Positions 8,254 through 57,810 are shown, numbered from the whole stretch's first letter. The stretch is DNA of 63,969 bases, filler included, from Hausera hauseri (GCA_046269625.1; 11 parts of 11 records of this genome joined end to end with filler, not necessarily neighbours in it); one strand, 5' to 3'. Made by a program: numbers and translations. Notes: generated from the letters alone by a model not told the origin.

Positions 8254-8645
8254 TATTGTGCCCACAGCTGACAGTGCCCTTTGGCCTATTTGGTCAGACG
8301 CGGCCGGGCGTACGTTGCCGCCGCGTCGGGCCCATAGTCGGGCTCGATCTCTCGCCTCGAAAATTTTATAAGATGACGTTGTTGAAACTGTTCCCACCGA
8401 TGAAAATACTTTAAATTCTTTATCTTACTTTTCAAAAAAAGCAATCAAAAAGAGAAAATCTCAAATCTGGTGATATCACATCTACAAATATTCTGCGTAG
8501 TGTTGGTAGCCAATCAGACAATCGACCTATTCAGAAACTAGTCCTCAGTAATGTTCGTTACAACAGTGATTATGTGTCGTCGAACGATGGTCACATAGCG
8601 ATTTTAGACCAAGATGACCTTACCATCGAACACGGGTCAGGCACT

Positions 8646-8705
8646 CAGAAGCCACCATATCCCTATGCTCAGTTGATTGTACAGGCCGTCAGTACAACAC
8701 GAGAC
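8646..8705 (+). pseudogene. foxK: FoxK forkhead N-terminal fragment
   Basis: QKPPYPYAQLIVQAV matches FoxK KPPYSYAQLIVQAI; stops at the CLIC ATG. Confidence 0.7.
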
Positions 8706-9650
8706 ATGTCAGAAGGAAATTCAACGTTACCAGTTATTGACTTGTATGTTAAAGCTTCAACAGTCGATCCGTTGGATAAAGGACCTTGCCCAATTTCACA
8801 GAAATAGTTCGTGGTATTTATACGATGGTTGAACACAAATTAATTTATTTGTGCGTTACTGCGCTTGATTTTAAAAATCCACCCGATGAATATATGCAAA
8901 TGTCAGTCGGTAGAAACTTACCAGTTGCTGTGGTAATTGAAAGCCACGATCCAAGAACATGTGAAGACATTAAAGATCTGATTGCCGACACTAATAATGA
9001 AATTGAAAATCTAATGGATCGATTTAAATGTCCAGGAATGGAACTAGGTGCATCGGCATTTAAAGTAACCGAAGATTTGTTCCGAAATTTCAATTCATAC
9101 TTACAAACGAACAATGCATCCAATATGGTCGCCAATTTGCAATCTTTAGATGTTTATAAATTCACGAAGTTCCAGATATCTTGAGGGTGACAGTATTCAT
9201 TTCGTCGATTGTGTCGTTATGCCAAAAGTTCAACATTTGCGAGTAGCATGTACTGCATTTAAAAATTTCCAAATTCCACACGATTTGAAAGGTGTTTGGC
9301 GTTACATTAAAACGATGTACAAAACGGAAGCATTCAAACTGAGTTGTCCTTGCGATCGAGACATTCTGATTCATTATAGTGAAAAGACAAATCCGAGACC
9401 GAAGTAATCAGTTTTGTTAAAAGATAATTCAACAACAATGACATTTCCCGACGATATCCATTTGAATAATACGTATTGAAATTGATTCCAGAATTTTGAT
9501 ATAAAAGAAGCTCAATATTATAACTAATGTTTGCAAATCAATGTTATGTTTTTTGTTAAGTTACACTCGGTTATTATCCATATTTGCATTGTCTGTTGGC
9601 GTTCTAAGAATATATTTTTTACACTTTGTTTTAATATTCAATAAATATTG
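8706..9650 (+). pseudogene. CLIC: processed chloride intracellular channel (CLIC) copy with 3' UTR
   Basis: IDLYVKAS..KGPCPISQ, YLEGDSIHFVDCVVMPKVQHLRVA..FKNFQIP..LKGVWRYI..AFKLSCPCDRDILIHY; intronless, with stop and frameshifts; AATAAA at about 9640. Confidence 0.88.
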
Positions 9651-9658
9651 TATACACT

Positions 9659-10562
9659 TTGAAAAAAAATCCAAGAGAAACGGAAAATAAAATTGTCAAG
9701 GATATGAATTCAAATTTAATGTCTTCTATGACGATTTTAGAATCTCTTCTTTTGTCGGTGGTTTCAAATGTTGATTTTAATTTGGAAGATGTAACGGATT
9801 CTGTTAAAAAACTCTTGCTCAGTGAAAAGTCAAATGATGATTTACAGAATGAACTGTTCGAATTATTGGGCATGGACGGTTTCGACATTATCGGAGCTTT
9901 GCTTGAAAATCGCCAAGGAATTATTAAGAATATTCAAAATACTGTTCAGAAAGAAAACGATCCGACGTCTGTTCAAAAATCTCGACCGACAAAAAAGACA
10001 AACGATTCTAAACAGGTTAGTGCCGATGTTTATCCGTTCGTTTTCGACAAGATGTTGGGTATTAACCGAACGAAAATCACCGTCGGAAATTGTGAATCGG
10101 AAAATTGCCGAGATTATGAAAAATGGAAAATCCCGGCACGAGAAAGCTGGGATCCGATTCCCGTCAATCGAATCGAAATCTTGTTTTTGGATGACATTGG
10201 CCAAATGGGATTCGAAGGAATGAAACAATTGAATCTGATTAAGTCGGTCGTGTTTGAAACGGCATACGGTACAAACGAAAATATGCTCGTCTGTGCATCG
10301 ACTGGTGTCAGGAAAACCAACATTGCAATGCTGACCAATTTGCATGAGATGAAACAGAACATAGGGCCGGGTAAAAAAATAAAATTGAGCGAATTCAAAA
10401 TCATTTGCGCTACTCCGATGAAAGCATTTGCCGAAGAAATGACACGGACATTCGGTGTTCGACTGAAGAAGTTGTGTATTTCAGTTCGCGAATGCACGGG
10501 CGATATGCAGCTGTCGAAACAGGAAATCGCCAGTACGCAGATTATCCTCATGACTCCGATGA
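9659..10562 (+). pseudogene. ASCC3: ASCC3 (Ski2/Brr2-like helicase) fragment, intronless
   Basis: SNDDLQNELFELLG, GFEGMKQLNLIKSVVFETAYGTNENMLVCASTGVRKTNIAML (degraded Walker A), PMKAFAEEM, VRECTGDMQLSK; truncated before DExH. Confidence 0.88.
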
Positions 10563-11484
10563 AATTAATGAATTATAAATGGTGTCAGGAAAATTCGCAT
10601 CATGCAGCTATCTCCATAAAGGTAATACCTATTAATCTTATAACAAATGATTATCAAATCGAATCAACACCCAGTAATAGTACTATGTCACTTATTAATG
10701 ATCGTTGGTGCTGGGATAAAGTGCATATTGCCCAGACAATAATTGATAAGGATGATCAAAAATTTCGTGAAGTTCGATCCCATGTTCCCAGAAGCATTAA
10801 TCGTGATGACCGAAGACGTAAAGTTGTTGCTGGTAGAACCGTAATGCAGATGGTTGATAAAACTGGTTATGATCCGTGGGGCATTAATTCAAAACTTAGT
10901 CCGACTATGGATATCGGTTTGGATACATTCCACATTAAGACTGGTAAGAGATCGTTTAAAGCTGTAGTTTTTTCTATTCTTACAACGTTCACTCAATATA
11001 TTAGCCTCGTTAATTCGACTAAGGGCAAAATTGAATACCACGATTCGCCTAACAGAAACATCGCGGCGGCAATCAAGCTCTTCAAAGATAAGTTTAACAT
11101 TCTTCTTCAGAAGCACATTATCTACCGTTATGGTGTTGGCGATTCTCATGCATATTTCATCAAACTGTAAACGGGAAACTCGGCTACCCCGCAGTTTGTG
11201 ACCCGTCCCGGCCAGGCGGAAGCCTCGGCCGCCCATCCTATACCACTGGGTCAGACGGCACTGTTCGCTACCGCCCCACGACACGCCCCCGGCCACACGA
11301 CTTCTCTGTATTTTCTTTTCTTTTTTTAAATAAGAAACATATTTGCACAAACGCAGTAACACACTTAGACACTGCGGCCATTTACAACATCATCTCCACT
11401 TTTCTTCGCTCACCTGACTTTTACCTCACACACGACGGCTCCACAAAACCTCTCGTTGGAACCCTACAATCTTCTTCATCCTAT

Positions 11485-12068
11485 ATGTACTTTCACATAC
11501 ACTTCCGCATCAGTGGTGGCATGCATTCATCGCTCACTATTGATACCACGGACAAACCCACCCAACCACAGAACTCCATCACTGACCTCCCCAAAGAAAG
11601 TGCTTCGAACACTCCGACACAGCACATACTCCCCGCTCATTCACCCTGCACAGAAAACTTCTTCGATAGCCAAAGTTCTACCCAAACTTGACTAAAACTG
11701 CATCAATTCTGGCTCCAGTCACAAAACGTCGTCGACCCCTTATCCAAAGCCAACAGCCTGTATTTTCATTTACCTGCTTCCATCAAAACCAAAATTACAA
11801 ACATCATCGAAATCCTTCACCACACCGGTCCATATGCTCAACTGTATAATGCCGTTCTTAAGCTCACTGAGCCGTCAATCGACTTAATCATTCAAAGATT
11901 CTTCAACGACAACGCCATTGACCTACAAAAGCCTTCTGAATTCTCGCGCACATCTTTGTCTCACCTCAATACCCTTGGCGTAACATCTGAGCATAGTACA
12001 GAACTTCTTCGCCGTTACTTTTTAAATGCATTGCCCCTTCAAATAAGAGCTTTTCTCACTGTGGTCGA
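11485..12068 (+). mobile_element. gag: CsRn1-clade gag 5' part, degenerate
   Basis: Homologous to 12930-13943 (HIHFRISGGM vs HIHSRIRGGM; LTEPSIDLIIQRFFN; LLRRYFLNALP). Confidence 0.8.
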
Positions 12069-12400
12069 NNNNNNNNNNNNNNNNNNNNNNNNNNNNNNNN
12101 NNNNNNNNNNNNTTAATTAATTAANNNNNNNNNNNNNNNNNNNNNNNNNNNNNNNNNNNNNNNNNNNNGATGGTCGGGTCCGGAACCGTATTTGATTGGG
12201 TATTGTTGTTCAATGATTTTACTGAAAATACCAGATGGTTGGTGCTAACATTGAGCTGTGATTGACTGTCGACATTGTCCTTTGGAAGCTTACGATGTGA
12301 AACGTGATAGTTATTGGAATTATAATGAGGTACCGACTGTTTTAAAATAGATTGCCTACTTACTGTTTACTGTGTTGTCTACAAGTATATTCGATTTCAG

Positions 12401-12787
12401 TCAGTGTCGGTTACAATCGACTAGCAAATTATAACGCGAAAGGAAATCAGAGCCAAGTATTGCCGTCTGGACGTTAGCGACTGTAAACATCCAACGGAAT
12501 GAAGAGGAAAATTTTGGTAGAGTGAAAGATAATTTGCATGTTCCAGTAATATGGGGAGATTGACCAGAGACGGTGTATAAAGGTTTTATTTTAGGTGAAA
12601 AATGCTGAACCGGAAAAGAAAATGGTAGTAGTGAGATTGCTGCGCCAGTATCGATGAGAAAGTCTATGGATTGAATGTTAGGATTAGAGATAGCAGCTTT
12701 TAGTGTAAAGACTGCAAATGAAGTGTGTCGGCAAGATGAATTAGGTAAGTTGCCTTTGCCAGAATCTGCCGAGAATACTGGCGGCAA
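12401..12787 (-). mobile_element. retroviral-type aspartic protease (pol start)
   Basis: FLIDTGAAISLLP ... AILGSDFL. Confidence 0.92.
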
Positions 12788-27004: not shown

Positions 27005-27007
27005 GTT

Positions 27008-29689: not shown

Positions 29690-29747
29690 AAAGTGTACTC
29701 GGTAAGTGAACTGATAGTGGGAAAAAAAGTTAAGTCATCGGAAAATG

Positions 29748-36899: not shown

Positions 36900-39502
36900 T
36901 AGATAAATCAATTTGCTCATGTGCCAATCGATAGTGCACAAAGTGCTATGAACATTTTCTTCAGGACAATATGGCTTAGCTCAAAGTCCTTAAGGTGAAT
37001 ATGAAACTGGAGGCCACATACATCAATGTTGATGGCGAAGAATCCAACAAGGCCTTCAAGACCAAAAATATGCCCATATTGATAAACACCAATATAGAAG
37101 AATGGCTGCAAGAAGCGCACGAGAAGCTGATCCGTGAAGCCGGAAAAAGCTAGGATAAGAAAAGCGGATGGACTCTGGCAACCATCAAGAGATAGATTGT
37201 GTATGTGCACAAGTACTCTCCCATGAGGAGCAATTCATATATTTAGCTCCCTTATTGGATAGCTAATAAAAAGCATGTGTCAATATCCATAATAGCGACA
37301 ACATGTGTTTCGTGCATGACATTCTATCAAAACTCGCAACGGATCAAAATCATGCTTCACGAGTTTGGCTATATAAGGATGTTCAGCACAAGTATGAATT
37401 GCAATGTATCAAGTTCCCTCCATCCATAGATGAAGTCAAAAATTTGGAGAAGTCAACAACATGTCCATAAATATCTTGGGACTGGATGAGGAGGACAAAT
37501 TTTATCCCCTACACATATGCGATGCTGAATTGGAGGATCATAGAGATCTGCTCCTACTAGACGATGGAGAAAAGAAAAATTATGTTTGGATCAAAGACTT
37601 TGAGCGGATAGTCAAATCACAAATTACGAAACATCATGGACAAGTAGAAATATGCAAACGATGCTTGTCCCATTTCAGCTGCGATGTGGCAGTATTAAAG
37701 CTACCAGAGCACAAAATGTACTGCAACAGCAATTATTGGATCAGGCCAGAATTTCCCAAGGAGGTTTACATTGAATTTAATGAGTTCGAGAAGATCACGG
37801 TCCCAATAGTTATCTTTTGGGACTTGGAGGCTATTCTCAGGCCACTTCAGAGTTGTAGCCTCAATTCACAACATAGCAGAACAACGGCATACCAATATCA
37901 TGAGATCTCATCATATTGTATGTATGCCAAAGGACTGGACAGTGAGCCACATCTATTCAGGGGTCCAGGCGCAGCAGCTCATTTTATGAAGCGACTTGGA
38001 GATATCGCTCATAGGCTTGGAGATATGCTGTAGCAGCATAAGGACAACATGAACATGTCGAAGTAGCAAGAAGAATGGCGCAGAATAACAGCATGTTACT
38101 TATGTGACAAATTCTTCACTAAGGGTAATCATAAAGTCAGGGATCACAGTCATTTTACAGGCAAATATCGAGGCGCGTAATGCAACAACTACAATATACA
38201 CTATAAAACATGTACATATGTATCTGTAGTGTTTCATAACCTCAGTGGCTATGACTCCTGCTTTACTGATCAGGAACTGGGAAACATTGAAGGAAACATT
38301 GATGTAATTCCTTATAGTGAGGAGAAGTACACCACCTTTACAAAGCATGTTGGGAAAATCAGGCTCCGCTTCGTACAGAGCTTTCGTTTCATGTTGTCTT
38401 CACTTGATAGTTTAGTGTAGAACCTCCCAGCAGAAGAACTCAAGGAGACAGAGCGGTTCTTTCCAACTGCATTTGACCTCGTCAAGAGTAAAGGCGTGTT
38501 TCCATATGACTATATAACTTCATGGGAAACACTGGATGCGACCTCATTGCCGGCCAAGAATGATTTTACAATATCCTCTCAGATAGCGATATGAATGATA
38601 ATGACTGCCAGCATGCTCAAAACGTCTGTCATGCATTCAAATACCGGACATTAGGAGAATGCAGCGACATATACCTCACGACAGACATGTTGCTTCTGAC
38701 GGATATCTTTGAGAGTTTCAGGGATGGATCCAATTCATTTCTTTACGACTCTAGGTATGGGTTGGACAGCTATGCTGAGATATGCAGGTGTCAGGCTGCA
38801 GATCATAAAGGATTACCACATGATCCTCATGATCGACAGAGGCATTAAACGCGGAATATGCCAGACCATTCACCAGTATAGCGAGGCCAACAACAAGTAT
38901 ATGGCCCAATATGATCCATCCAAAGAATCCTCATATATATCATACCTCGATGCCAACAAGCTTTGTGGTTGGGCAATGAGCTCCCCATTGCCATATGATA
39001 ACTTCAAGTGGGTCGAGAATCCTGAAAATATCCCTCTACTGGACCTGGATCCTAGTGGAGATATGGAACATATACTGGAGCTGGATACGGAATATCCGGC
39101 TTTTATCTACACAAGACATCAACAGCTGCCTTTCCTCCCTGAGATCAAGCCTCCGCTCCATGAAAAGCACAGAAAGCTGCTCTGCCATCTGGATAATAGG
39201 AAGAGGTATTTAGTTCACTACATCAATCTACAGCAGGCGGTCAAAAATGGCCTCCACATTACTACGATCCATAGAGCCCTGCAGTTCAGCCAGTCCAACT
39301 GGCTGCGGTCCTACATAGATCTCAATACGAAGTTGCGGACCAATGCCAAAAACGACTTTGAGAAGGACCAGTTCAAGCTTTACAACAACAGAGTTTTTGG
39401 TAAGACCATGGAGAATATACACAACATTATCAACATCAAACTGGTCTCTGAGTGGAAGCGGGAAAAAAAGCATATTGCCAAGCCTAACTCGCACAGTAGC
39501 AC
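36900..39502 (+). mobile_element. polB: Polinton pPolB (subfamily B) pseudogene, interrupted at 39503 by an LTR
   Basis: SGWTL, NYVWIKDFER, IFWDLE, FHNLSGYD, KRKGVFPYDY, YLDANKLCGWAM, KLYNNRVFGKTMEN. Confidence 0.92.
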
Positions 39503-42500
39503 TGTACTGCCCACATTCACCCGATCGATGATTTTCATGCGAAACATTTTTATGTAAAATGTTTTTGTTTAAATATAAGGACATTTGGTGGAATTTTGAA
39601 AGCTATAGACTTTTTCATTCCAAGACAGTACGATTGTGTAGTTATTTTTGCTAATTGTTTATATTTCTTTGATTAAATGGATTCACAAAAATCATTCGAG
39701 GAATTAGCCGTCGACGGGTTATTATCATTCGGTTCGATACATTCTGGTCGTACTCCCAAAATTCCCAGGCCAGANNNNNNNNNNNNNNNNNNNNNNNNNN
39801 NNNNNNNNNNNNNNNNNNNNNNNNNNNNNNNNNNNNNNNNNNNNNNNNNNNNNNNNNNNNNNNNNNNNNNNNNNAATATTCTTTGCCGATAATGACATAA
39901 CCTTATCCAACTGTACAGCGTTTTCTAACAGTCATACGAAAAACAATTTACTTCATTTCAATTCGTATCAAATCCAATCCCATCACGTCTGTAATCCGTC
40001 GGATAATGTTTCGTTGAATGAAAGTTTAAATGAGAACTTATCGGTCAAACATTACTTCCGGAATAGTTTAGAAAGTATGACAACAGAAATTGCCAATTCA
40101 AATGACATTCCATTGTTTCAAGAAGACAAAATGATAGAAAATTACACTGGTGTCAGAAGTCCCCACCTCTATGCAGTCGCCATACAGCGAGAAGAGGCTC
40201 AACATTGCATAACGGTCACGGATCCATTAGGATCAACCGTCTTGCATCAACCGGTTAACCCAGGAGAGACTGGTTGTCTCACAGTCGAAGAACAACAATT
40301 GGGGTTTTACATTCCTTATCTGCATCTCGGCGAAATCCAGGAGTTATTTTACTTCTCCATTGACGACGCAGATGATACACGGATACTTTCAGTGCTGCCC
40401 CCGTCGAGTGGAATGGTTCTAAGAAATTTAAATCATCACAACTTAGACAAACAGGTCTCTTTCACAAATCTCATAGTCTAAACGATTTGCCTCCTTACAA
40501 ATCTCACAAACTTTCTCGTGAATCCGACTGTGATAACAGTGATTCGTCGTTCGATCAACCACCGAATAAAATTCTAAAAACCGACAATTGTTCAAGCAAT
40601 TCTCATCGTACTTACTCACCAATATATATTTGTCGGGATATTGAAGGATCCAATGCACACACTTGTCTGAAATCGGTATGTGATTTGATCAAAACACTTT
40701 GTAAGCTCATCCAAGGAGGAATTATGGAACATTTTGCTGTCTATATCCAAAGTTCATTCGATCGTTATTCACAAAATATCCAAGTCAGTTGGAAAGAAAA
40801 GGGCCGTGCACTGTTTTTAACTATGTCCATTGCATCACGTGGCAATACCAAAATATACGGCGCTGCCATTGCGAGCTTCATCGACATTGCTTCGTCCTAT
40901 TGGAGAGAAGTCGAAGAATTCTTGCCGAACGTATTTCTTCTTCTCGGTGACAATCCACCGACGCGTTGGTCACCAGAAAACTCACGCTGGGTACCGCCTG
41001 GCAAAGTTGACTTTGCCACATTCACCCAATCGATGATTTGCATGCGAAACATTTTTTTTTATGTAAAACCTTTTTGTTTAAATACAAAAACTTTTGGTGG
41101 AATTTTGAAAATTATAGACTTTTTCATTCTAGTACAGTACGATTATGTAGTTATTTTTGCTAATTGTTTATATTTCTTTTATTAAAAGGACTTACAAAAA
41201 TCATTAGAGGAATTAGCCGTCGACGGGTTATTATCATTCGGTTCGATACATTCTGGTCGTACTCCCAAAATTCCCAGGCCAGAAATTCCTAGGTTCTTCA
41301 TTGATAATTCGGAGATACTTAACACACCAACGGTTCTATTGGATTCCGATTCTTTGGGCATAGAATCCGAGAATAATTTGCCAATATTCTTTGCCGATAA
41401 TGACATAACCTTATCCAACTGTACAGCGTTTTCTAACAGTCATACGAAAAACAATTTACCCCATTTCAATTCGTATCAAATCCAATCCCATCACGTCCGT
41501 AATCCGTCGGATAATGTTTCGTCCAATGAAAGTAAATGAGAATTTATCGGTGAAACATTACTTCCGGAATAATTTAGAGAGTATGACAACAGAAATTGCC
41601 AATTCAAATGACATTCCATTTTTCCAACGAAACAAAATGATAGAGAACAACAATGGTGTCAGAAGCCCACATCTGTACACAGTCGCTGTACATCGGGCAG
41701 AAGTCCAACATTTTTAATGGTCACGGACCCATTAGGATCAATCGTTTTGCATCAACCGGTGGAACCAGGAGAGACCAATTCTCTAATAGTCGAAACACAT
41801 CAAACAGACTTTACGTGCCATTTCTACGTCTCGGGGAAATTCAGAAATTGTTTTATTTTTCCATCGACGATGCACCGGACATGCCTAATGTTACTTCTGT
41901 CGACTCGACCAATACCGAAAAATTTAAATCATCACATGATTCAGAGAAAACAAGCAACTCAAACTATTTGCATTATCGCGAATCCCACAAATGTTCTCGG
42001 GAATCCGATTGTGATGATAGCAATTCGTCGTTTGACCGATCACATAATAAAATTAAAAAAATCGACGATTGTTCGGACAACTTCGCAGTGCATTTGCTCA
42101 CGACAATAAATGGCGATGGATCTAAAAAATGGATCCTAAATCTAACGTATGCCTTTCATCAAATTGTGACCGTAAAACCAATTTGAAAAGTTCGCTGTAT
42201 GCGGACAATACGTTGAATTATCATAATAACAACAAGATATCTCGTGAACAGCTGAGTAATATTCCGTCCGCCAGAGCAGTTGAGTCGAATTTGGATGCAA
42301 AAATACCATCCGTTGGCGTAAAAAATCTTACCAGTGACAATTTCTGCTCACCTGCCGCATTTGTTAAACGAAATCTGAATTCGAACAGTGTTTTATAAAT
42401 TCAAAAAGAACCCGAGTTTGCCCATTCACCATTTACATCTTAGTTTCAGTTACAACAGAACAAGTCGGTATATAACGGAAATATGGTCAATCATCAGGTT

Positions 42501-42789
42501 TCAGAAGCTTGGTTACCGAAAAACCTTCGGTGCGTCCCTCCTGGCAATACCAACCTTACCACGGGGGGAGGGGTAGTGTGGTGCCCACATTTACCCAATC
42601 GGTGCTTGTATATAAAACATTTTGTATTTTAAACAAGTGTTTTAATATAAAATAGATGAAGTTGTATTTTGAAAATTATCGACTTTTTCAGTCTAGGACA
42701 GTATGATTATGTAGTTATTTTTGTTAATTGTTAATATTTCTGTGATTAAATGGATTTACAAAAATCATTCGAGGAATTAACCGTCGACG
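39503..42789 (+). mobile_element. non-autonomous tandem LTR array (LTR1 39503-~40965, LTR2 ~41016-42509, LTR3 42577 to gap) with ~50-65 nt internal parts
   Basis: Three copies of CCACATT(C/T)ACCC.ATCG...GAGGAATTA.CCGTCGACG; spacers start TGGT(C/T)ACC; PPT GGGGGGAGGGGTAG precedes TGTGGTGCCCACA at 42577. Confidence 0.8.
40620..40935 (+). pseudogene. CSE1L: exportin-2 (CSE1L) internal fragment
   Basis: YICRDIEGSNAHT..SVCDLIKTLCK..VSWKEKGRALFLTMSIASRGNTKIYG resembles [52 protein letters not shown]. Confidence 0.8.
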
Positions 42790-45800: not shown

Positions 45801-48800
45801 CTTGTTTGCATTGTTGTCGATCTAAATCCATTATGAATTAGCGGTTTCGTTGGTTTTACGAGCGACGAATGTTTATGCATATTTCCACAGTGAAAAATGC
45901 TTCACGATCGTCGTAACATACACTCTATCCCATTTATTGCGATTAGTTCGCGTTGTTGATACAAGAAATACTTTTTCTTATTGGTTACTAATTTGTGGGG
46001 TCTGGCATCCTCACACAACTCCAGATCCATTATGGAATATTTTTGAACTTTTTAAAATTTATCACAGTCATATACCGTGATTGCACTGAGTTGTCTTATT
46101 AGCATCATAAGTGTTATTAGTTTAATCATCCAGTCGGATTCACTACTTCGCATTGAGTTAGTTGGTACTAAATTTCTTACCACATCTTCAAATCTAGTGG
46201 TTGGCCTGTATCCATCTCCGTCGTCAAATAGCTTGGACCATTTTATCTCTCTAGGTATCTTCCTAGCAGCTTTTCTGATCAATCCAATGGTTCTATTGAA
46301 TTCGTTTTCATTTAGGGGTTTGTTTTGATTGCCAAGTACAATGCTACTTTCCTTAATTCTTCCTCAGTATTCTCTACCATAATTTTCTCGTGAGGTAAGT
46401 TGCTTTTTTTCATTTTGAACCGAAATGTTCTCATTATCCATGCTGCGTCGTATATTGCCTTTTCTTTTTCATCTAACATCTTGTTTCTTGGTCCCGAATA
46501 GTTCATTATTTTTATAATGTTTCTCAGTAACTCGTTTAATTCTTCGCTATCGGAGTTAATCGCGGGCATGGATAATTGCCTTAGTTCTCGTATCAGAGCT
46601 GCACTTTGGTCAATATCATCTCATATTTTCCTCGGCCTTCCAACTTGTCGTTTCTGTTTCGACGCAGTTGGTATTGCTTCGCTAATCGGTACTAGATTCT
46701 TATCGTATTGTTCCTTATCTTCCTCACTTTGGAGGTAGTCAAAATACATGGCAGGGTCTCGGATTCCCATGCGTTCAAAGCAATGTTCATCTCACTTTCC
46801 TTACAGCCTCGTCTTTCGTCTGTTCGCCGGTTATTATAGCCACTATTCGATTTGATTCCTATGGAATAATGCCAACATCTATTAGTAACTCAAGTTCGTC
46901 CAGTATCCTACTTCGGAAATATGACCGATAATTTACTTCATCTTTCCCACTGTTTTGTACTACCCATTGTTTTACTTCTCTAACCGATGTTACCGTTATG
47001 CATGCAATTTCGCTATTCCATCCATTCAGCTTATATTTTTACCTTAACCGTCGTTTCAGGTTTATCTTTCAAGAAATCAGTATTTCTTTATCAATAGTCT
47101 GGGTACTGAGCTATAAACGGTGTTTTCGCTTGATAGTTTGGTTAATGTAAGGATGAACTGTCTCAATTTGCTCTCAGTCATGTTGACGTTAATCTGCTCA
47201 ATTAATTCCCTTTCGGCCCGTGCGGGATCCAAGTCCATCTCCATATCAAATCGCCGGTCTGTTGGAAGAATATCCTTTTGTTGAAGTTGATGATGTGGGC
47301 AAATATCAAACGTCGATAGATCGCATATGGATATTTCATCCATGGGCCTTGTTGTCAAGTATCGTACACCTAGACGGACACATTTTAGTCTCAAGATCTT
47401 TTCTTGTTTCGCCGATAATTCCATTTCTTCCATCATGATATACAATTCTGTGAATTTTATTTCCTGATATATACTCATAAATGTTAGTCTCAATAACTCG
47501 TTAAATTCAACTCGAAGTTTGCCTCAGTTTTGTAAGCATCTAGGTTACGGAGTATTTCTTAGCTGTTGTTTTAATATCGGTTCACATTCTGAATACTTCC
47601 TTAGACGATATTTCATCACACTCACTAATCTGTCTAACAGTTCAATCCATTCTTTGAACTGGTTATCTATCATTGGTTTCGCATTTATTACATTTTCTAA
47701 TCGTTCGTAGGTGTCATTCAATTTATCATCTGGACCTTCCTTCTTGCATTCGTCAAGTTCTAAAATACGTTTTCGTTATGTTTTGTACTTCTTGATTCTC
47801 TGCATACGTTATTTTATTCTTACATCTGTAGATTTCGGAGCGCCTTTTATCTTGCGAGGCTATGCGAACTCCTATGTCCGCATATTCTTTGGGTGCACTG
47901 TATGCGATCTTACACATTTCCATTATGAGATGAATGTCTACAGGTTCTATACCTAGTATTAAAAATTCGTTTTCATCTTATTCGAATATTGGTTTACTTT
48001 TGAGGCGATAGATTACTGCACTCTCTATTTCTATCATTAACTTCTCTAAATTCCGTTTTGCTCGCTTCTGTTTTAAATCCGTCTCCTTGGGCAGTCGCCA
48101 CTTTACTCTTAATTTCCATTTCTTGATTATTCCATGTAACGGTGAAGTCGATTCCGTTTTTTATCCATGAATCCATTTTGTCTTCCATTTTTCAAGTGAC
48201 TTCTCCATAATTTCATCCATTTCCTCTGGTTCTTTCTTCTTCAAGGTATCGTTTAAATTCTTTATACATTCTTTCGGCGAACTGGTTCTTTTCCAGACAC
48301 ATCTTGAGTTTTTATATGCCTTAATTCTTTCCTTTAATTTATCTGCATTTTTCCAGAACTTTCTGATCTTCCACACCTTTCCGTCTAGCCTTTTAATTCG
48401 TTCCGTGCCATCAGTCTCACCTTCGCTATCGGGTAATGGACATCTCATTTATCTCTGCTCGCGTCTCCTACTGTTACCCTTGTACTTGGAATATCGGGAT
48501 GTCCTCTGTCCGCATCTTGGACTTAAGTTTTCTCTGCATTATCGCTTTTAAATGGCGATCTTGATCTACCTTTTGGCTTCTTTTTAAGTGATGGACTGCG
48601 ACCTCTATTTTTCGTTATTTTAAGGACTAATGGAGCTATATATTCACTCTCAATTTCGTCAGCCACACCTTGACGTCCTCTGCCAAGGTTTCAGATTCAG
48701 CGTCCAAGTCTACATTGGGCGATGTCTCTGCTGCTTCCACATTACTTGCTTTTTCTGTCACTACGGGCTTTACAGGCACGTTCTTCTTGAGAACCATATT

Positions 48801-49242
48801 ACTGTTTTCAGGCGCTATTGAGTACTTGTATTTTGTTTGAGGTTTAACTAGTCAGTGATATACTTCTAATATCCGTACGTTATCTTCATATTCCTTTCCA
48901 GCCTTTAGGATTTGCGGATTGTTTGTTTCTCGTTGACTTTTCAGGTATTGTCGTTAATCTTGAATATCAAAAATTGCGTCTATGTCACCTCTGGAACTAC
49001 ATTTCGCCTCTAGATCTTCTTGCGTCTTAATTATACTTGACTTCCTCGGTTCGGTAAACGATACGCTTCAAGGATTTGGACATGACCGTGCTATGTGGCC
49101 TTTCTTACCACATGTATAACATATTAAGTTTTGGTTTCTACCAATCCGTTGTCGACCGTCTTCACTTATGGGCGATTTTGAGGGGCTGTCTCTCCTAGAA
49201 TAGCCCTGATTTAAGGATTCTATCCGACTACTTCCGTCATAT
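42890..49242 (-). mobile_element. decayed large LTR retrotransposon: CCHC, UBL, AT-hook, helical domain, chuvirus-like env, aspartic protease
   Basis: CYTCGKKGHIARSC (~49100), UBL-like (~47040-46860), GRPRK (~46635), signal+ITVYDC (~46080), CIQELPVIY..TRVL..GIY, TM (~44450), ALIDTGSEKSF (~43610), VVLGCD. Confidence 0.85.
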
Positions 49243-49342: not shown

Positions 49343-51880
49343 GCTTGTGTATGTTCACAAGTACTCTCCAATGCGGGGCAGTTCTTATATTCAGCTTCCG
49401 GAATGGATCGCTAATAAAACTGCATGTGTCAATGTCCATAATAATAACATGTGGTTAATGTATGCCATTCTATCAAAACTCGTGCCTGATCAACATAAAT
49501 CTTCACGAGTTTGGCAATAAGGATGTGCAACACAATTATGACTTCCAATGTATCACATTCCCTCCATCCTTAGATGAAATTAAGAAGTTCAGTCGAAGAA
49601 ACAACATATCAACCAACATCTGTGGACTGGATGAGGAGGACAAATTTTATCACATGCAGATATGATACCAAATTGGAACATCATAAGTATCTACTCCTAC
49701 TAGACGATGGAGAAAAGAAACATTATGTTTGGATCAAGAACTTGGAGCGTCTAGTCAGATTTCAAATTACGAAACATATAGCAAGAATCGAAATATGCAA
49801 ACGATGCTTTTCCCATTTCAGTGGTGATTCAGCAGTAGACAAGCTTGCAGAGCACAAGATGTATTGCAGCAACAATTACTGTGTAAGGCCAGAATTTCCC
49901 AAGGAACACTATACTGAATTCAAGGAGCTCCAGAAGAAGCTCAAGGCACCAATAGTAATCTATTGCGACTTTGAAATTATTCTCCGGCCAGTTCACAGCT
50001 GCACTCCCAGTCCTCAACATAGCAGCACAACGGCATAACAATATCATGAACTCTCATCGTATTGCATGTATGCCAAAGGACTGGACAGTGAACCATTTTT
50101 ATTCAGAAGTCCAGATGCAGCAGCATATTTCATGAAACGACTTAAAGACGTGGCTTATAAGCTTGAAAACATGCTTTAGCAACATAAGGATAATGAGCAT
50201 GTCGAAGCAACAAGAAAAATGGCGCAAGGCAACATGTTACTTGTGCGACAAGTCCTTCACCAAGGATAATCATAAAGTCAGGGATCATTGCAATTTTACA
50301 GGCAAATATCGAGTTGCAGCATGCAACAAATGAAATCTGCGTTGCAAAACATTCACACATGTGCCTGTAGTGTTCAACAATCTCAGTGGCAACGATTCCC
50401 ACTTCATTGTTCGGGAACTGGGCAACATTGATGGGAACATTGATGTCATTTCCAATAGTGAGGAAAAATACATCACCTTCAAGAAGCATGTGAGCCGCAT
50501 TACACTTCGATTCATAGACAGCTCGTCACTGGATAGTTTAGTCAAGACCCTCCCTGCAGAAGAACTCAAGGAGACGAAGCGGTTCTTCCCCACTACATTT
50601 GACCTCGTCAAGAGGAAAGGCGTGTTTCCTTACGACTACATAACCTGATGGGAAACACTGGATGATACCTCATTTCCGGACAAGAAGGTCTTTTACAATA
50701 ACCTCTTTGATTGCAATATCAGTAATGCTGACTATCAGCATGCCTAGAACGTCTGGTAGGCATTCCAATGCCGAACATTAAGGGAACACAGCGACATATA
50801 CCTCAAGACGGACCTACTGCTTCTGACATGTCTGAGAGTTTCAGGGACGTTACAATGAAGAGCCATGTTTTGGATTCGGTTCATGTCTTTACGAGTCCAG
50901 GGATGATTTGGTCAGCTATGCTGCGATATACTGGTATTAGGCTGCAGATCATTAAGGATTACGACATGATCCTTATGATCGAGAGGCATTAGAGGCGGAA
51001 TATGCCAGGCCATTAATCGGTATAGCGAGGCCAACAAGTATATGGCCCAGTATGACTCAGCCAAGGAATTCTCACATATATCATACCTGGATGCCAACAA
51101 CTTGTATGGATATGCAATGAGTGTCCCATTGCCACATGATAACTTCAAATTGGTCGAGAAGCATGAAAACATCCCTGTATTTGATCTGGGTCCCGCTGGA
51201 GATACGTGCTATATACTGGAGGTGGATATGGAATATCCTGCTTCCATCCACGCAAGGCATCAACAGCCTCATGGAAAGCATAGAAAGCTGCTCTGCCATC
51301 TTGGTAATAGGGAAAAGTATGTAGTTCACTACATAAATCTCCAGCAGGCAGTTAGACATGGACTCCGCATCAAAGATCCATAGAGATCGTCAGTTCAGCC
51401 AATCCATGTGGCTGCAGCCCTACACAGATCTCAATACGAAGCTGTGGACAAATGTCAAGAACGACTTTGAGAAGGACGAGTTCAAGCTTTGCAAGAACTC
51501 GGTCTTTGGCAAGACCATGGAGAATATCCGGAACAGGATCAACATCGAGCTAGTATGTGACTGGAAGCGAACAAAGTTTATTGCCAAACCTAACTTCCAC
51601 AGAAGAACAATATATATGGAGAACTTGGTCAGCATCCATATGTTGAAAACATCCTTGGTATTCAACAAGCCCATATGTGGGTATGGCAATATTGGATCTA
51701 TCAAAAACTTTAATGTATCAATTCCATTATGACATCGTGGTCCCCAAGTTCAAGTCGATGCAGCTGATGTATATGGATACTGATAGTTTTATCTATCAGA
51801 TCCATATTGAAGACATTTATGAGGACTTTGCCCAATTGACTCAACACATGGATACCTAGGACTATCCGAAGAATCACCCA
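49343..51880 (+). mobile_element. polB: Polinton pPolB (subfamily B) pseudogene, truncated after YMDTDS
   Basis: HYVWIKNLERL, IYCDFE, DHCNFTGKYR, KRKGVFPYDY, YLDANNLYGYAM, KNSVFGKTMEN, LMYMDTDSFIY. Confidence 0.93.
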
Positions 51881-51888
51881 ACGTTGAC

Positions 51889-54078
51889 ATGGCTACATAT
51901 TTCATTATTTCCAAATTCACTTCAAAGCATAATGAGTTTTGTTATTTGTGCTCCTCAAATAATAGGTTTGTTTAGATTTGCAACTTTTACAAATTTTGCA
52001 TGGCGTAGAAACACGAGGAGCAGAATTGTCACAGTGTAATGCAGCATTATTTTGTATACCAGCACAATAGGACCCAATATTATTTGTGTTCTGCATGTGA
52101 GGTAGTGTGCCGGACCGGTTACGAGGAATTTTACAACCAACATAAACAGCATTTGGATTCGTTCACAAAATCGAAGAAAGAAGTATTTAACAGTAATATG
52201 CCAATGACAACAAGTGTCCCAAAAGCAAATCAGATGTGCGGTTCATATGATTATTGTATATCCAGAGCACATAACCCGCAAGAGTGCCATGAAACGATGC
52301 AGCGGTATTATGGATACAAATCCAAAAGTATCCAATAATATATATGTCCGGGATGTGAGACTGTATGCGGTGCATATTACATACAGTTCTATTATGAGCA
52401 CAAACATCATTTGAGTCACTTCGCATCAAAATCAAAGAAGGCCATCTATAATAAGCAACATAGTATTGATGCATCTGCTTCGCAGTATGATTCTTCGCAT
52501 TATTAGAGTATTCAAACGCGCAGCCGCATCATGTACAGCACCATCATGCGCAGCAGCATCATACGCCCATCAGGTGCAGCGGCTCCAACAAAAAGTCAAA
52601 AACAGCGGCCAGTTAATGCTTCAGCATTACAGAGAAAATGCCGCAGATATTTTATTAATGCAACTGGTCAAACAACGCTCCATAAGTTCCTGGAAAATAC
52701 AAAGGAAGGAACAGAGGAGATTCTTTAGGACAACATGGCTGAGCTTAAAGCCGTTAAGGTAAATATGAAACTGGAGGCCACATACATCAATATTGATTGT
52801 GAAAAATCCAATAGGGCATTCAAGACCAAAAATAGGTCCATTTTTGAAGCCACCAATATGGTAGAATGGCTGCATGAAGAGCATGCGAAGCTGATCCGTG
52901 AAACCGGGGAGAACCAGGATAAGAAGAGCGGATGGACTCTGGCAACCATCAAGAGATTGCTTGTGTATGTGCACAAGTACTCTCCAATGCAGGGCAGTTC
53001 CTATATTCCGCTTCGGGAATAGGTCGCTAATAAAAAACCATGTGTCAATGTCCATAATAATGACAACATGTATTTCATGTATCCTATTTTATGTAAACTC
53101 GTACTGGAGCAAAAACATGCAGCAGATCGAGTTTGGCTATATAATGATCTGAAGCACAAATATGACTTCCAATGTATTAAGTTCCCTCCACCCTTATATG
53201 AAATTAAGAAGTTCAACCGAATCAACAACATATCCATCAACATCATTTGATTGGATGAGGCGGACAAATTCTATCCCCTGCAGATATATGATACGGAATT
53301 GGAAGATCATAGGGATTTGCTCCTACTAGACAATGGGGAAAAGAAATATTATGTTTGGATCAAGAACCTTGAGCATCTAGTCAGATCCCAAATTACGAAA
53401 CATAAGGAAAGAATAGAAATATATAAACTATGCTTTTCCTATTTTAGTGGTAATTCAGCTGTGGACAAGCTTGCAGAGTACAAAATGTACTGAAGCAACA
53501 ATTACTGTGAAAGGCAAGAATTTCCAATGGAGGACTATATTGAATTCAAGGAGTTCGAGAAGATCAAGGTTCCAATAGTTATCTATGCGACTTTGAAGCT
53601 ATTCTCCGGTCAGTTCACAGCTGCATTCCCAGTCCCCAACATACCAGCACAACGGCATACCAATATCATGAACTCTCATCGTATTGCATGCATGCCAAAG
53701 GACTGGACAGTGAACCACTTCTATTCAGAGGTCCAGGTGAAACAACACATTTCATGAAAAGACTTGAAGATATGGCTCATAAGCTTGAAAACATGCTTAA
53801 GCAGCATAAGGATAATATGAGCATGTCGTGGAAACAAGCAGAAGAATGGGGCAAGGCAACAACATGTTACTTGTGCAACAAGTCCTTCACCAAGAAAAAT
53901 CATAAAGTCAAGGATCATTGCCATTTTACAGGTGCATATCGAGGAGCAGCATGCAACAGATGCAGTCTTCGCTGCAAAACATATACATATGTGCTTGTAG
54001 TATTTCACAACCTCCGTGGCTATGATTCCCACTCCATTGTTAGGGAACTGGGAAGCATTGAAAAAAACATTCATGTGA
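51889..54078 (+). mobile_element. polB: 5' part of a further pPolB (subfamily B) copy with N-terminal Zn-repeat region
   Basis: YLCSAC..FYNQHKQHL, YICPGC..FYYEHKHHL, KSGWTL, GSSYIPL, CYLC..DHCHFTGAYRGAACNRC, FHNLRGYD. Confidence 0.9.
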
Positions 54079-54500: not shown

Positions 54501-54859
54501 ACTATGACGAAGTTCCACGTTAACCAACGTATATTTACTTTGAACATTTTGTAATATGTTTGACCCCGGAGTAATGAAAATCATGTTGCCGACAATTTCT
54601 TTAAAATCAGTATAAAATGAACCGTGTTTTTGTGATGAAGTTTGAAAAGCATATTATTTATATTGGCAGGTTTTTGGCAACAATATTGGGACGAAGGGTG
54701 AACATGAAATGTATTTTTGTAAATGAGGTAAATGACAAATCACAAATGCTCTTGGCGAAATGGGATTATTGTCCTGCATTTTGTTAACGATGTATGACAA
54801 ATCATACGGTTTGTATTTGGTGACAATTATTGAGAATTTGGAAAAATGTATTATATGAA

Positions 54860-55075
54860 ATTGTTCGCATCAGCAGCCATTTAATCATTTATAATTGCCC
54901 ATAAAATGCGGAAACATGAATCGGAAGAAAATTTTCATGGGGAATCATCGGTTCCTGACAGCTATCAGCATACGTAATAATTCGGCTTATAAAGCATGTG
55001 CAATATAATTGTTCCACTTTTGAAATATTTCCTAATTTGACAGCATGTGAGAACTGATAAAAGTCATTATTGTAC
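54860..55075 (-). pseudogene. ankyrin-repeat fragment
   Basis: FSHAVKLGNISKVEQL..LPIHVSAFYGQL*MIKWLL. Confidence 0.5.
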
Positions 55076-55956
55076 ATTGAGCAAATAATAAAAGAAAATG
55101 CAACTAATTGTTCATAAAAGAATAGCAAATTGAATATTCGATTGAGCGAGAAATTACCATTTGATTAAGTGCACAACGATAAATATGAAATATATGTACA
55201 AGTAATTTTCAACGTTCAAATATTTATTGAACTCTTCAAAAACTAAGAATTTAGAGAAAATTACAACAGGATACAAACGATCAAGTTATCAAACGCAAAA
55301 TGAAACATTATTACTGAAGGAATCATTTGAGTTGTTAATGAGACTGATGTAGGTATATGAAAGAAGAAAACTATCATTAGTTGACTATCTGATTGTCGTA
55401 ACGATGTGTACTGCTATTAAATCTCCCTGGAAATTTTTTTTGAACTTAATTCTAGGCAGTCACTGAATAGGACATTTTATTCCAAAGAATAATAATGTTT
55501 TCCATCAACGTTCCAAATTAACTAAAGATATATCTTTTTCCTTGCGCATAATATATAAATATTAGTATCGAGATTCGCAAATCTAACGTTTTAAAGGAAT
55601 ATCATTCTACTATGGGACACAATATATAGAATCTCAATAATGCAAAGAACATAATGCATTCTATTAAAGAAATAACGAACAACATACATCAGAATACAAA
55701 TGGTTAGGACTATCATTTTCAAAATGGTTACGAACAAATTTCATACCTTATTTTGGTCAGTTAAATGAAACGGAATTTTCCACGGTATTAAATCGAATGA
55801 AATCGTTTAAAAACGAAATTGAATATTTTTTGAAAACCCTGTAGAATCAGAATTAGTTGTAATGTAAAATTAACCATTGATTGTTTTCCTTTTTGATTAA
55901 TTTTTACATTTTATTTTACGAAAAATATCTCATTATTTTTTAATCACTTTATAGTA

Positions 55957-56125
55957 AGTAGGTAGGTGTGTCATCTCCGCCGCACTTCCCCGATTGGTCA
56001 GCAAATCACTTTTCCCCACCTATCTCGCTATTAAGATCATTTTATGTAAAAAGTTGGTCAGAACTCCTTAGTAAAAGTCCGTGTCGTATGACGGACCTTG
56101 GACCAAATAAAATCGGTAGCGCGTG
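55957..56125 (+). mobile_element. probable Polinton-type terminus (AGTAGGTAG), interrupted by the LTR motif at 56126
   Basis: Homologous to 19736 onward. Confidence 0.45.
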
Positions 56126-57810
56126 TGTGGTGCCCACAGCGGCCAGCGCCCTCTGGCCCATTTGGTTTGGCACGGCAGGGTTTTCGCCGCCGCCGCGTCG
56201 GGCCCATGGTCAGACCCGATCTTCCGCCTCTGAAACTTGCTTTACGAGGCTTAAATTTGCATCAACAATCTGTACTATGAGGCGAACAAATACGACTAAT
56301 GATTATTCTGAAGAAATTTCTTGTGTCGAGTTCATCAACACGTCTTCATCTAGAAGTAGCTTAAATTTCAATTGTACTTATGTTGGTCAAATTGATAAGT
56401 ATAAATTATCTTTTTAACCGTTATGAAGAAACAAACCCAAACGTTGACTTCGGGAATAAGCTTCAGGAATGATGTTACGGCGTTCATAGAGTGCTGAAAA
56501 ATTATTGAGGCTTCCTGAATGAACAGCTATTAGTTTATGCGACGAATATGATTTTACAATATTCTTATCCGCTCTATATTATTCCTATTTTAATGAGTAA
56601 AATCTTGGCCGGTGGAAAATTCTATATTGAATTACAAAAGACGTTACAACAATTCCGAAGATATTTTTGACTTTTCCGTAGCTTCACCAGAAAAATCGTC
56701 AATTTAAACCGTGACAAAAATGGCCCCCATTAAGTTGTTTGCAAAACTACGAATCGATTCAACCGAGTACAAAGCCGTTGCTGAGGAATCATGTGGGTGT
56801 CGTAACATGTCGGATGCCGTAGTTCCTGAACAGGAGTGGAAATTCATACAAAGAGGATGTATCAAACCAAAAAGCGGATTTACGACACCATTCATGGTAT
56901 ATACAGTTGTTGAAGATCGAAATAGTTCGAATGCAAATGGTCAATATTTCGAACTAAGCATCGAATTTTTCCCGGCATTCACAATGTTTCAACATTCACC
57001 AGAAATCGTTTTTGAGTGTAACCGATTTCTTTGACGTATTAATATTTTGTATAATAACGTTTTAATACTTGTTATTGTCATTTATGGTAATTTTCCTTTT
57101 TTGTTTGTGATCATATCTCGTTCGACAACGAATCATCCATAATCTATTGTTCTTTTTACGACAAGCAATTTAAAACGGTTTTTACAATTAACGTTTTAAT
57201 TTGGTTGACTTTTGTTTTCCTTCTATCGAACATAGCGTTAATAACGTTTCATATTCAGATTATTGTAAAGTTAAGGCTAATGAATTTCAATTTACCGAAT
57301 ACGAATAATGTTCGAAAAAACATTTGTATTCGTTTTACAAAGGCTTGTGTTGTAAATAGTATATTTTATTGTTTTATTTTTAGTACTGAAAGTATCAATT
57401 TCATTTTGTACTGGTATGCACATATTTTACTGTTGGATATATTTTTGACATATAATACGTTTTTTATAACTGATCAGTGTTGTGAATCCATTTTTTATCT
57501 GATATTGATTCCAGCATTTTGGAATTTCGTAAAGCAGTGCTACAAGAAATGAATTTAATTTATAAATTTAAAAAAAATTATTTTAATAAAAACATTTTGC
57601 TCGCATATAAATTGTATTCAGTGACAATAGACATTTTGGCCGAGATTTTAACGAAAAAGAAATGAATTTATCATTCAGTCACAATTCAAGGTCTAGTTTT
57701 TTATTCAAATTTAATTCTGAATCTGTCGTTGATCGAACTGATATCCGCACGTTCTGCTGCTGTTTGTGATAAATACAGATTAATAGGCACCGGCTGCCGT
57801 TGGCACCACA
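56126..57810. mobile_element. LTR-derived block bounded by inverted TGTGGTGCC motifs, unidentified cargo inside
   Basis: Plus TGTGGTGCCCACAGCGGCCAGCGCC at 56126; minus TGTGGTGCCAACGGCAGCCGGTGCC at 57810, directly after a PPT. Confidence 0.65.

What the first reader, a model, noticed from the sequence alone, without database searches (positions are those of the whole stretch)
8254..57810. CsRn1-clade LTR family whose LTRs are recurrently filled with host mRNA fragments
Seen: the start T(G/A)TNNTGCC occurs at 8254(+), 18368(-), 39503(+), 42577(+), 56126(+) and 57810(-), on four separate contigs. Three copies sit directly after a (C/A)CAC-GGG-rich polypurine tract, which is the U3 start position. 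After only 9-110 nt of element sequence each switches to unrelated, intronless, mixed-orientation host-like fragments (FoxK, CLIC, ASCC3; RBCK1-like, ADCK1; CSE1L), different at each locus. Known: LTR elements transduce mRNA by RT template switching, usually into the internal region. Inference: here capture seems routine and lands inside the LTR itself, giving 1.5-4 kb hypervariable LTRs. These could shuffle exons and supply host-gene-derived small RNAs.
Basis: partly seen in the sequence, partly recalled or inferred. Interest (0 to 1): 0.9.

Follow-up and report, generated by a model that had tools for sequence, protein, structure and literature searches.

The report
Retrotransposon fuses host fragments to Gag
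A family of jumping genes in a flatworm-like genome carries different chains of host gene pieces in its terminal repeat and leader, kept in one reading frame with its capsid protein, which suggests these elements sample host messages and may express them.

Summary
The bare motif is not above chance (17 seen, 12±3.5 expected). The six sites are nevertheless real LTR starts of a CsRn1-related gypsy subclade, probably in a triclad planarian. The subclade uses a tRNA-Leu primer site and has a ubiquitin-like domain ahead of Gag.

The primer sites fix LTR lengths at 0.65-2.3 kb, not 1.5-4 kb. ASCC3, FoxK-like, CLIC-like and RBR pieces lie inside LTRs. Piwi, ADCK1, Furry, DPAGT1 and CSE1L lie behind the primer site.

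New here: the cargo shares Gag's reading frame. Contig 3 has 9 stops in 1231 codons, against 66-83 in the other five frames. A relative (L007) has an unbroken 1303-aa cargo-UBL-Gag frame. Four related families have host domains ahead of the primer-site footprint. Six sister families have plain, cargo-free LTRs.

Best reading: the reverse transcriptase switches onto host mRNAs. Because Gag translation starts inside the LTR, only sense, in-frame cargo survives, and the ubiquitin-like domain frees Gag. Not shown: both LTRs of one element sharing host cargo, intron loss against parent genes, or expression.

The parts
8254..10579 (+). Composite 5' LTR, about 2.3 kb: U3 stub, host cargo, about 15-nt U5 stub
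   Evidence: Left junction from X1 loose ends at 8252; right limit from the primer site at 10580
8254..8366 (+). GC-rich LTR start (block A)
   Evidence: 87/113 identical to 56126-56238; other copies diverge after about 8348-8366, agreement 0.6 in 14 contigs
8415..9404 (+). FoxK-like piece joined in frame to the start of a CLIC-like piece (frameshifted, ends at a stop); inside the LTR
   Evidence: Weak: E 0.009 to FOXK1; GST_C_2 E 0.005; exc-4 E 0.3
9704..10564 (+). ASCC3 fragment (PWI plus first helicase motifs), inside the LTR, open frame running through the primer site
   Evidence: E 4e-49 to human ASCC3; Pfam DEAD and Helicase_PWI
10580..10591 (+). Primer binding site, tRNA-Leu type (10 of 12)
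   Evidence: tRNA assignment from passages of PMC8905726 and PMC7997516
10658..11164 (+). Triclad-type Piwi fragment in the leader, same frame as ASCC3
   Evidence: 61-65% to planarian PIWI-1 proteins; 0 stops in 511 codons
11168..11297 (+). Block B: diverged inverted copy of the LTR start, inside the leader; possible 5'-3' pairing element
   Evidence: 69/122 and 72/125 to block A reversed, 0/2000 shuffles; duplex -95 and -100 kcal/mol, 0/300 shuffles
11347..12068 (+). Ubiquitin-like remnant ending in GG, then Gag (cut by the contig end)
   Evidence: 19.7 bits to a clade UBL profile vs 3.6 best shuffle; tree
12401..14048 (-). UBL remnant, Gag with CX2HX9CX3C, protease (decayed)
   Evidence: 32 bits vs 7.1 best shuffle
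14052..17744 (-). One decayed reading frame from inside the LTR through the primer site and all leader cargo into UBL-Gag
   Evidence: 9 stops in 1231 codons vs 66-83 in the other five frames; each sub-segment lowest in this frame
14847..15551 (-). Furry fragment fused in frame to a DPAGT1 fragment, overlapping at a Trp-Arg stretch
   Evidence: MOR2-PAG1_N E 3e-8; DPAGT1 E 3.5e-13
16107..17219 (-). ADCK1 fragment, about residues 2-366, with one 51-nt insert
17511..17519 (-). Primer binding site, tRNA-Leu type (first 9 nt exact)
17520..18368 (-). LTR of about 0.85 kb between two tandem units; 9-nt U3 stub, then an antisense RBR/RBCK1-like piece (17874-18360, + strand)
18369..18933 (-). Pol tail and polypurine tract
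   Evidence: Homologous to 57811-58420
39503..42789 (+). Non-autonomous tandem array inserted in a pPolB gene: LTR (39503-40147), primer site 40148, leader, cargo, LTR (about 41014-41653), primer site 41654, different cargo, PPT 42559-42576, LTR start 42577
   Evidence: both primer sites 12 of 12
40625..40897 (+). CSE1L fragment, internal (behind the primer site); replaced by unrelated sequence in the next unit
   Evidence: Cse1 E 1e-15; 190/389 between units
56126..56238 (+). Block A, inserted in another repeat
   Evidence: Homology of 55951-56125 to 19731-19909 stops exactly here
56239..57785 (+). Mosaic between two facing LTR starts; weak ZP-like piece 56762-57022 and an unassigned hydrophobic frame 57091-57552
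   Evidence: Zona_pellucida E 0.004; no family for the second
57786..59780 (-). RNase H-integrase, pol tail, PPT and 25-nt U3 stub
   Evidence: 43-47% to the UBL-subclade loci vs 33-36% to full-length matches in canonical loci

Best explanation
These are decayed copies of a CsRn1-related gypsy subclade with a tRNA-Leu primer and a ubiquitin-like (UBL) domain ending in GG ahead of Gag. In this subclade the Gag frame opens inside the LTR and runs through the primer site (shown).

During reverse transcription the enzyme switches onto co-packaged host mRNAs, often several in a row (inferred). A switch just after priming puts cargo inside the LTR; a switch late in minus-strand synthesis puts it in the leader.

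Cargo that lands between the start codon and Gag survives only if it is sense and keeps the frame open. The pattern is shown; selection as its cause is inferred. Host deubiquitinases would cut behind the GG and free Gag from any N-terminal passenger (inferred), which makes such cargo tolerable. Cargo upstream of the start codon, such as the antisense RBR piece, is free of that filter. Cargo nearest the element ends is copied on with the element, while middle pieces are exchanged.
For: Shared frame: contig 3 has 9 stops in 1231 cargo codons vs 66-83 in other frames, Poisson P about 1e-22. That decay rate (0.73 per 100 codons) is close to UBL-Gag's (0.54). ASCC3-primer site-Piwi has 0 stops in 511 codons. 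L007 is one 1303-aa frame with an SCC3 fragment, UBL and Gag.

Primer sites: the exact 9-mer occurs 5 times vs 0.29 expected; 4 are at predicted places and 1 is inside ASCC3. In 5 of 6 cargo-free sister families the Gag frame is open 111-387 nt upstream of the primer site; the sixth (L013) is frameshifted.

Relatives: among the 150 best Gag hits, 21 representatives form a clade with the window copies (SH-like 99). Six of the 21 carry host domains: DIS3L-like plus CNOT1, H2A, 5'-nucleotidase, SCC3, ARP8 and HSP90. Primer-site peptide footprints occur in 8 of 26 clade proteins (6 families) and 0 of 129 outside. In 4 of those 6 families a host domain lies ahead of the footprint. All 3 of 3 library proteins checkable against DNA are uninterrupted ORFs.

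Amplification: an X1 contig about 80-84% identical bridges Piwi to block B. Summed contig depth is 113-174 at FoxK, 30-60 in the middle, 255-323 at Piwi and 3800-13300 over leader and Gag. Template switching with multi-gene chimeras is documented in animals (PMC5131818).
Against: No locus has both LTRs with identifiable host cargo; the three LTR copies on contig 6 share an interior that no search identified. No parent gene with introns was seen; the read-laying output was cut. Introns would also be lost after DNA capture once the element is spliced, so intron absence cannot pick the route. ADCK1 has a 34-residue loop where 118 of 120 homologues have 14-17, a possible 51-nt intron relic.

Six sister families have plain 341-684-nt LTRs with no host domain. 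The primer sites on contigs 2 and 3 are imperfect (10/12 and 9/12). Contig 2 has a frame change between Piwi and Gag. Contig 10 is not in one frame and has no primer site. A Scribble-like LRR piece is fused in frame to pPolB at 62365-63177 with no family mark on that contig. Cleavage at the GG is untested.
Confidence: 0.68

Rival explanations
1. Cargo enters at the DNA level, by gap repair, ectopic recombination or read-through from genes the element landed in. It loses introns when the element transcript is spliced, and the same translation filter then keeps in-frame pieces.
For: The ADCK1 insert is intron-sized and ends in AG. The inverted A/B blocks could form hairpins prone to breakage. 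A Scribble-pPolB fusion lacks family marks.
Against: Four or five unrelated genes are chained within 2-4 kb, with joints inside conserved domains and an overlapping Trp-Arg stretch at Furry/DPAGT1. No intron-like spacer between pieces breaks the frame.
Confidence: 0.18
2. Ordinary LTR-mediated retrocopies plus later nesting and deletion. The 'LTR cargo' is flanking or internal DNA, and the imperfect primer-site matches on contigs 2 and 3 are chance.
For: Contig 10 can be read as two head-to-head elements joined by a deletion. One equally good 9-mer match lies inside ASCC3 by chance. U3 stubs of 9-25 nt are short.
Against: Primer sites sit where expected on three contigs. Four related families have host domains in frame ahead of the footprint. 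Random nesting cannot keep 1231 codons in one frame.
Confidence: 0.09
3. The units are non-autonomous DNA transposons with about 110-nt terminal inverted repeats (Pack-TIR or Ginger-like) that happen to sit beside gypsy genes.
For: Blocks A and B are inverted homologues over their whole length, and 56126 and 57810 face each other.
Against: A primer site lies between A and B. B is joined to leader and Gag in several X1 and X2 contigs. A-type starts follow polypurine tracts and pol. Contigs 3 and 6 lack B.
Confidence: 0.03
4. Assembly chimeras in leftover contigs.
For: The window is made of small unplaced contigs; no listed X1 piece spans the whole stretch.
Against: Mis-joins would not share one frame with a decay rate matching Gag's. 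An independent run bridges Piwi to block B, and the architecture recurs in unrelated data sets.
Confidence: 0.02

Closest known systems
LTR-mediated retrocopies of animals (Tan et al. 2016, PMC5131818; abstract, introduction and sections 5, 8, 10 read; supplements not read) and maize Bs1 as described there
   Same: Partial host coding pieces inside an LTR element, multi-gene chimeras, sense bias, secondary amplification.
   Different: There the retrocopies replace internal ORFs between the LTRs and are rare events. Here cargo also lies between LTR start and primer site, recurs with different genes at all 4 loci, and is in frame with the element's own Gag. Their unread supplements may hold switch points inside LTRs.
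CsRn1 clade (PwRn1, AgCR; PMC2582038, passages read)
   Same: CX2HX9CX3C Gag box, TGT start, polypurine tract, PR-RT-RH-IN order.
   Different: tRNA-Leu instead of tRNA-Trp primer site, N-terminal UBL, Gag frame opening in the LTR, host cargo; most subclade proteins have a second Cys-His box.
Cassandra, Helenus, Ajax TRIMs (Kojima 2024, PMC10886601; abstract read)
   Same: Host-RNA-derived sequence inside the LTR.
   Different: They carry one fixed 5S rRNA or tRNA piece and code for nothing; here the cargo is variable mRNA in frame with Gag.
TART-A capture of nxf2 (Ellison et al. 2020, PMC7785250; abstract read)
   Same: A retroelement carries a piece of a piRNA-pathway gene; here a Piwi piece shared by several diverged copies.
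   Different: TART-A is non-LTR and antisense piRNAs were shown; here no small-RNA data, and Piwi is one cargo among many.
Planarian Burro elements (PMC6431247, passages read)
   Same: Gypsy elements in triclads with host-like domains in the Gag polyprotein.
   Different: Burro has a CCHC Gag, env and a fixed set of domains behind Gag; here the cargo is variable and lies ahead of a UBL.
Ubiquitin inserts of cytopathic pestiviruses; Ty1 CYC5/CYC3 pairing (both recalled; the Ty1 look-up was not held; no look-up was tried for the pestivirus case)
   Same: A captured ubiquitin used as a host-cut processing site; pairing of leader with U3.
   Different: Analogy only; neither cleavage nor pairing was tested here.

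Membership tests
CsRn1 clade | Gag CX2HX9CX3C signature | tested here: met
   Contig 3 Gag has C-YY-H-9-C-3-C; definition from PMC2582038
CsRn1 clade | tRNA-Trp primer site | tested here: not met
   tRNA-Leu type at four places; only a 2-error Trp-like match at 11196 among 12 such matches. Canonical loci L014, L015, L018 have the Trp site
CsRn1 clade | LTR ends TGT...ACA/AAA/ATA, PPT directly before the 3' LTR | tested here: inconclusive
   Starts and PPT met at three sites; ends before the primer sites are decayed or variable
CsRn1 clade | 4-bp target site duplication | not testable with these tools
   No window element has both ends
CsRn1 clade | Pol phylogeny groups with CsRn1, Kabuki, Boudicca | not tested
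   No named references were at hand. Gag and integrase are related to canonical Trp-primed loci but closer to the UBL subclade
LTR-mediated retrocopy (Tan 2016) | Partial host coding sequence flanked by discontinuous LTR element | tested here: met
LTR-mediated retrocopy (Tan 2016) | Exon-exon junctions relative to the parent gene | tested here: inconclusive
   ADCK1 colinear over 1107 nt with one 51-nt insert; no parent locus seen
LTR-mediated retrocopy (Tan 2016) | Microsimilarity at switch points | tested here: inconclusive
   Seven-residue overlap of the Furry and DPAGT1 matches; parent sequences not available
LTR-mediated retrocopy (Tan 2016) | Retrocopy replaces internal ORFs only | tested here: not met
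   Cargo lies upstream of the primer site on contigs 2 and 3 and leaves gag in place
Pack-TIR / Ginger-type DNA transposon | Unit bounded by TIRs, with no primer site or PPT | tested here: not met
   Primer site between the inverted blocks; PPT before the starts

The most novel reading that the evidence does not exclude
A retrotransposon lineage built to sample the host transcriptome. Replication often swaps in new mRNA pieces on both sides of the primer site, keeps those that read in frame, and translates them as chimeric proteins that host deubiquitinases cut free of Gag. The element would thus be a standing generator of expressed domain fusions. Amplified cargo such as the Piwi piece would be selected because it weakens host silencing, through a dominant-negative fragment or piwi-matching piRNAs.
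Probability: 0.25. Interest if true: 0.93.

Novelty: new variant of a known kind. Interest (0 to 1): 0.8.

Why it matters
LTRs are normally the most constrained cis parts of these elements, and captured mRNA is known mainly as rare replacements of the internal region. Here kilobases of host coding sequence sit inside the LTR and leader while Gag stays encoded. That points to a design (in-LTR start codon plus a cleavable ubiquitin-like linker) that makes capture tolerable.

It gives a testable source of multi-gene fusions and of host-matching small RNAs in planarians, and a second candidate, after TART-A/nxf2, for a retroelement carrying a piRNA-pathway gene piece. It also warns annotators that such loci look like chimeric host genes. 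I found no description of a UBL-Gag CsRn1-like subclade or of such cargo in searches; the library lacks most subscription journals and Repbase.

Tried and rejected
Bare motif enrichment: not significant. TIR-element reading, and my interim idea that the family lacks a tRNA primer site: dropped once the Leu site was found further upstream (one search had searched too short a stretch). The 10303 match is inside the ASCC3 Walker A motif and is taken as chance. The inverted matches in cargo-free sisters are AT-rich noise away from the LTR ends.

No whole genome is held. No RNA holder listed. Only contig 2 could be laid, with 2 runs; 809 loose ends and 13816 pieces were not shown. A degenerate block-A pattern found 0 metagenome matches. 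Three viral-contig scans found no relative. Rfam gave 0 matches. The Atlas gave no usable hit for the contig 6 frame and only an Ig-like lead for L007 cargo. The near-length search with ASCC3 gave one fragment. The paper search for intronless planarian piwi found nothing relevant, and Schmidtea exon statistics were not readable in the table. The maximum-likelihood tree did not finish, so FastTree was used. Two recalled papers were not held.

Pfam was run on 32 of the 155 Gag relatives, chosen for clade membership or long N-termini. L002, L004, L010 and L012 have identical ends and look like collapsed high-copy assemblies, so rare cargo-bearing variants would be hidden.

Full report
Setting. 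The window is 12 small contigs joined by N-linkers; no whole genome is held. A Piwi fragment matches only triclad proteins (4 hits of 131 candidates, 61-65%), so the host is probably a planarian (inference). Two public runs hold part of contig 2 (shares 0.50 and 0.06); both are contig sets of unknown type.

The motif. All six sites are present, but T(G/A)TNNTGCC occurs 17 times against 11.95+-3.5 in shuffles. The sites stand on other evidence. 8254 and 56126 share 87/113 nt. 18368, 42577 and 57810 follow a G-rich tract, and the tails before 18368 and 57810 are homologous. 8254, 39503 and 56126 interrupt other repeats exactly at the start: 55 X1 contigs leave the window after 8252 and one shows the same start at a second site, pPolB homology ends at 39502, and a flanking repeat ends at 56125. 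Related metagenome loci begin their LTRs the same way.

Where the LTRs end. The tRNA-Trp site of CsRn1 (PMC2582038, passages) is absent. TGGTGTCAG occurs 5 times against 0.29 expected: at 10580, 17519, 40148 and 41654, each downstream of an LTR start on the same strand, and once by chance inside ASCC3. This is the tRNA-Leu site (passages of PMC8905726 and PMC7997516), and 8 of 13 subclade loci have it. LTRs are therefore about 2.3 kb (contig 2), 0.85 kb (contig 3) and 0.65 kb (contig 6). Inside them lie FoxK-like, CLIC-like (both weak) and ASCC3 pieces on contig 2, and an antisense RBR-like piece on contig 3. Behind the primer site lie Piwi; ADCK1, Furry and DPAGT1; and CSE1L. On contig 6 the two tandem units share LTR and leader but differ at the cargo position. 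On contig 10 two starts face each other with no primer site, so that unit is either a 3' LTR ending in an inverted start or a head-to-head junction.

One reading frame. On contig 3 the frame that opens 225 nt inside the LTR runs through the primer site, ADCK1, Furry, DPAGT1 and three unassigned segments into Gag. It has 9 stops in 1231 codons, against 66-83 in the other five frames, and every sub-segment is lowest in this frame. The stop density matches that of the element's own UBL-Gag (0.73 vs 0.54 per 100 codons), so the whole frame was probably open at insertion (inference). On contig 2, ASCC3, the primer site and Piwi form 511 open codons; a frame change separates them from Gag. Contig 10's mosaic is not in one frame.

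Relatives. Of 975 Gag hits the best 150 were listed. Twenty-one representatives group with the window copies (FastTree, SH-like 99). In this clade Gag is preceded by a ubiquitin-like domain ending in GG: Pfam ubiquitin E 6e-19 and 7e-24 in L002 and L003, with remnants in both window copies above 100 shuffles each. Gag starts beyond residue 200 in 11 of 21 clade proteins and 1 of 129 others; part of that length is the UBL and leader themselves. Six of the 21 carry host domains. One outside protein, P0141, has RING plus UBL. The primer site leaves a peptide footprint in 8 of 26 clade proteins (six families) and 0 of 129 outside; in four families a host domain (DIS3L-like, H2A, ARP8, HSP90) lies ahead of it, that is, in LTR position. 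I could not see their DNA, but 3 of 3 library proteins that could be checked are uninterrupted ORFs. L007 is a single 1303-aa frame from cargo (SCC3 fragment) through UBL to Gag, and L005 has a CLN6 fragment about 590 nt after its 3' LTR start.

Counter-evidence from relatives. Six families (L002, L003/L009, L004, L010, L011/L012, L013) have AT-rich LTRs of 341-684 nt and no host Pfam domain in the frame. Yet in five of them the Gag frame is already open 111-387 nt upstream of the primer site. The in-LTR start and the UBL thus look older than the cargo habit. Canonical Trp-primed controls have 173-215-nt LTR pairs, three with 4-bp duplications.

Inverted block. 11168-11283 is a full-length inverted homologue of the LTR start (0/2000 shuffles) and could pair with it. 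The same arrangement occurs in L005 (0/500) and L007 (6/500) but not on contigs 3 and 6 or in the cargo-free sisters. It may bring the RNA ends together, as recalled for Ty1; untested.

Copy pattern. Summed X1 contig depth, which is no copy number, is 113-174 at FoxK, 30-60 over CLIC and most of ASCC3, 255-323 at Piwi and 3800-13300 over leader and Gag. One contig about 80-84% identical bridges Piwi to block B, so that junction is old and shared. Fourteen contigs leaving near the end of block A agree at only 0.6, close to the 0.59-0.70 simulated for unrelated continuations and below the 0.70-0.90 for shared ones. Most Gag-bearing copies therefore do not carry this copy's cargo; what they carry was not visible.

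Mechanism. Shown: cargo positions, sense bias, shared frame, UBL-GG, in-LTR frame, and recurrence in other samples. From the literature: template switching onto co-packaged mRNA, with multi-gene chimeras (PMC5131818, sections read). Inferred: switching right after priming builds composite LTRs; translation of Gag filters the cargo; deubiquitinases free Gag. Not shown: cargo copied to both LTRs, intron loss against parents (ADCK1 has a 51-nt insert where 118 of 120 homologues have none), expression, small RNAs.

Verdict. A real feature, and a new variant of LTR-mediated capture: CsRn1-related but failing the Trp-primer test, with host cargo inside the LTR and leader in frame with a UBL-Gag. Searches found no description of it; supplements of Tan et al. 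were not read. Interest 0.8.

Noticed in passing
window 62365-63177 (-): Scribble-like LRR N-terminus (name recalled; Pfam gives LRR families) fused in frame to a Polinton-type pPolB fragment, with no LTR or primer-site mark on the contig; may be cargo of an element whose ends lie outside.
   Followed up: partly
window 24061-26957 (-) and 42890-49242 (-): Gypsy elements with Gag, CCHC box, weak Bcl-2 hit and Monjiviricetes-type fusion protein, resembling the planarian Burro layout in PMC6431247.
   Followed up: partly
window 7279-8252: Zinc-knuckle element at extreme summed depth (140,000-236,000 in X1); target of at least two insertions of the family studied.
   Followed up: partly
window 2529-5287, 36957-39502, 49343-54076, 60512-62514: Decayed protein-primed DNA polymerase B copies of two families, with a RING gene on contig 1; Polinton/Maverick-like.
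   Followed up: no
window 55951-56125 and 19731-19909: Shared unnamed repeat of about 180 nt starting with an AGTAGGTAG-like run; possibly a transposon terminus.
   Followed up: partly
window 20160-23957: About 3.8 kb compound tetranucleotide microsatellite.
   Followed up: no
window 29870-35725 (-): Decayed non-LTR retrotransposon (RT) with a C-terminal nuclease-like motif and upstream protease-like frames (labels recalled).
   Followed up: no
window 39680-40627 and 41186-42183: Open frame that starts in the contig 6 LTR and crosses the primer site; no family found.
   Followed up: partly
L002 2021-2242, L003 1497-1718: Near-canonical ubiquitin domain fused ahead of Gag in cargo-free families; it is much more diverged in cargo-bearing ones.
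   Followed up: partly
L001 1-172: Inverted LTR start of the L008 family directly upstream of Gag (99% identical): a nested insertion that shows one way an inverted start can reach the leader.
   Followed up: partly
P0141: UBL-Gag protein with an upstream RING domain that falls outside the subclade in the tree; a second origin or a misplacement.
   Followed up: no
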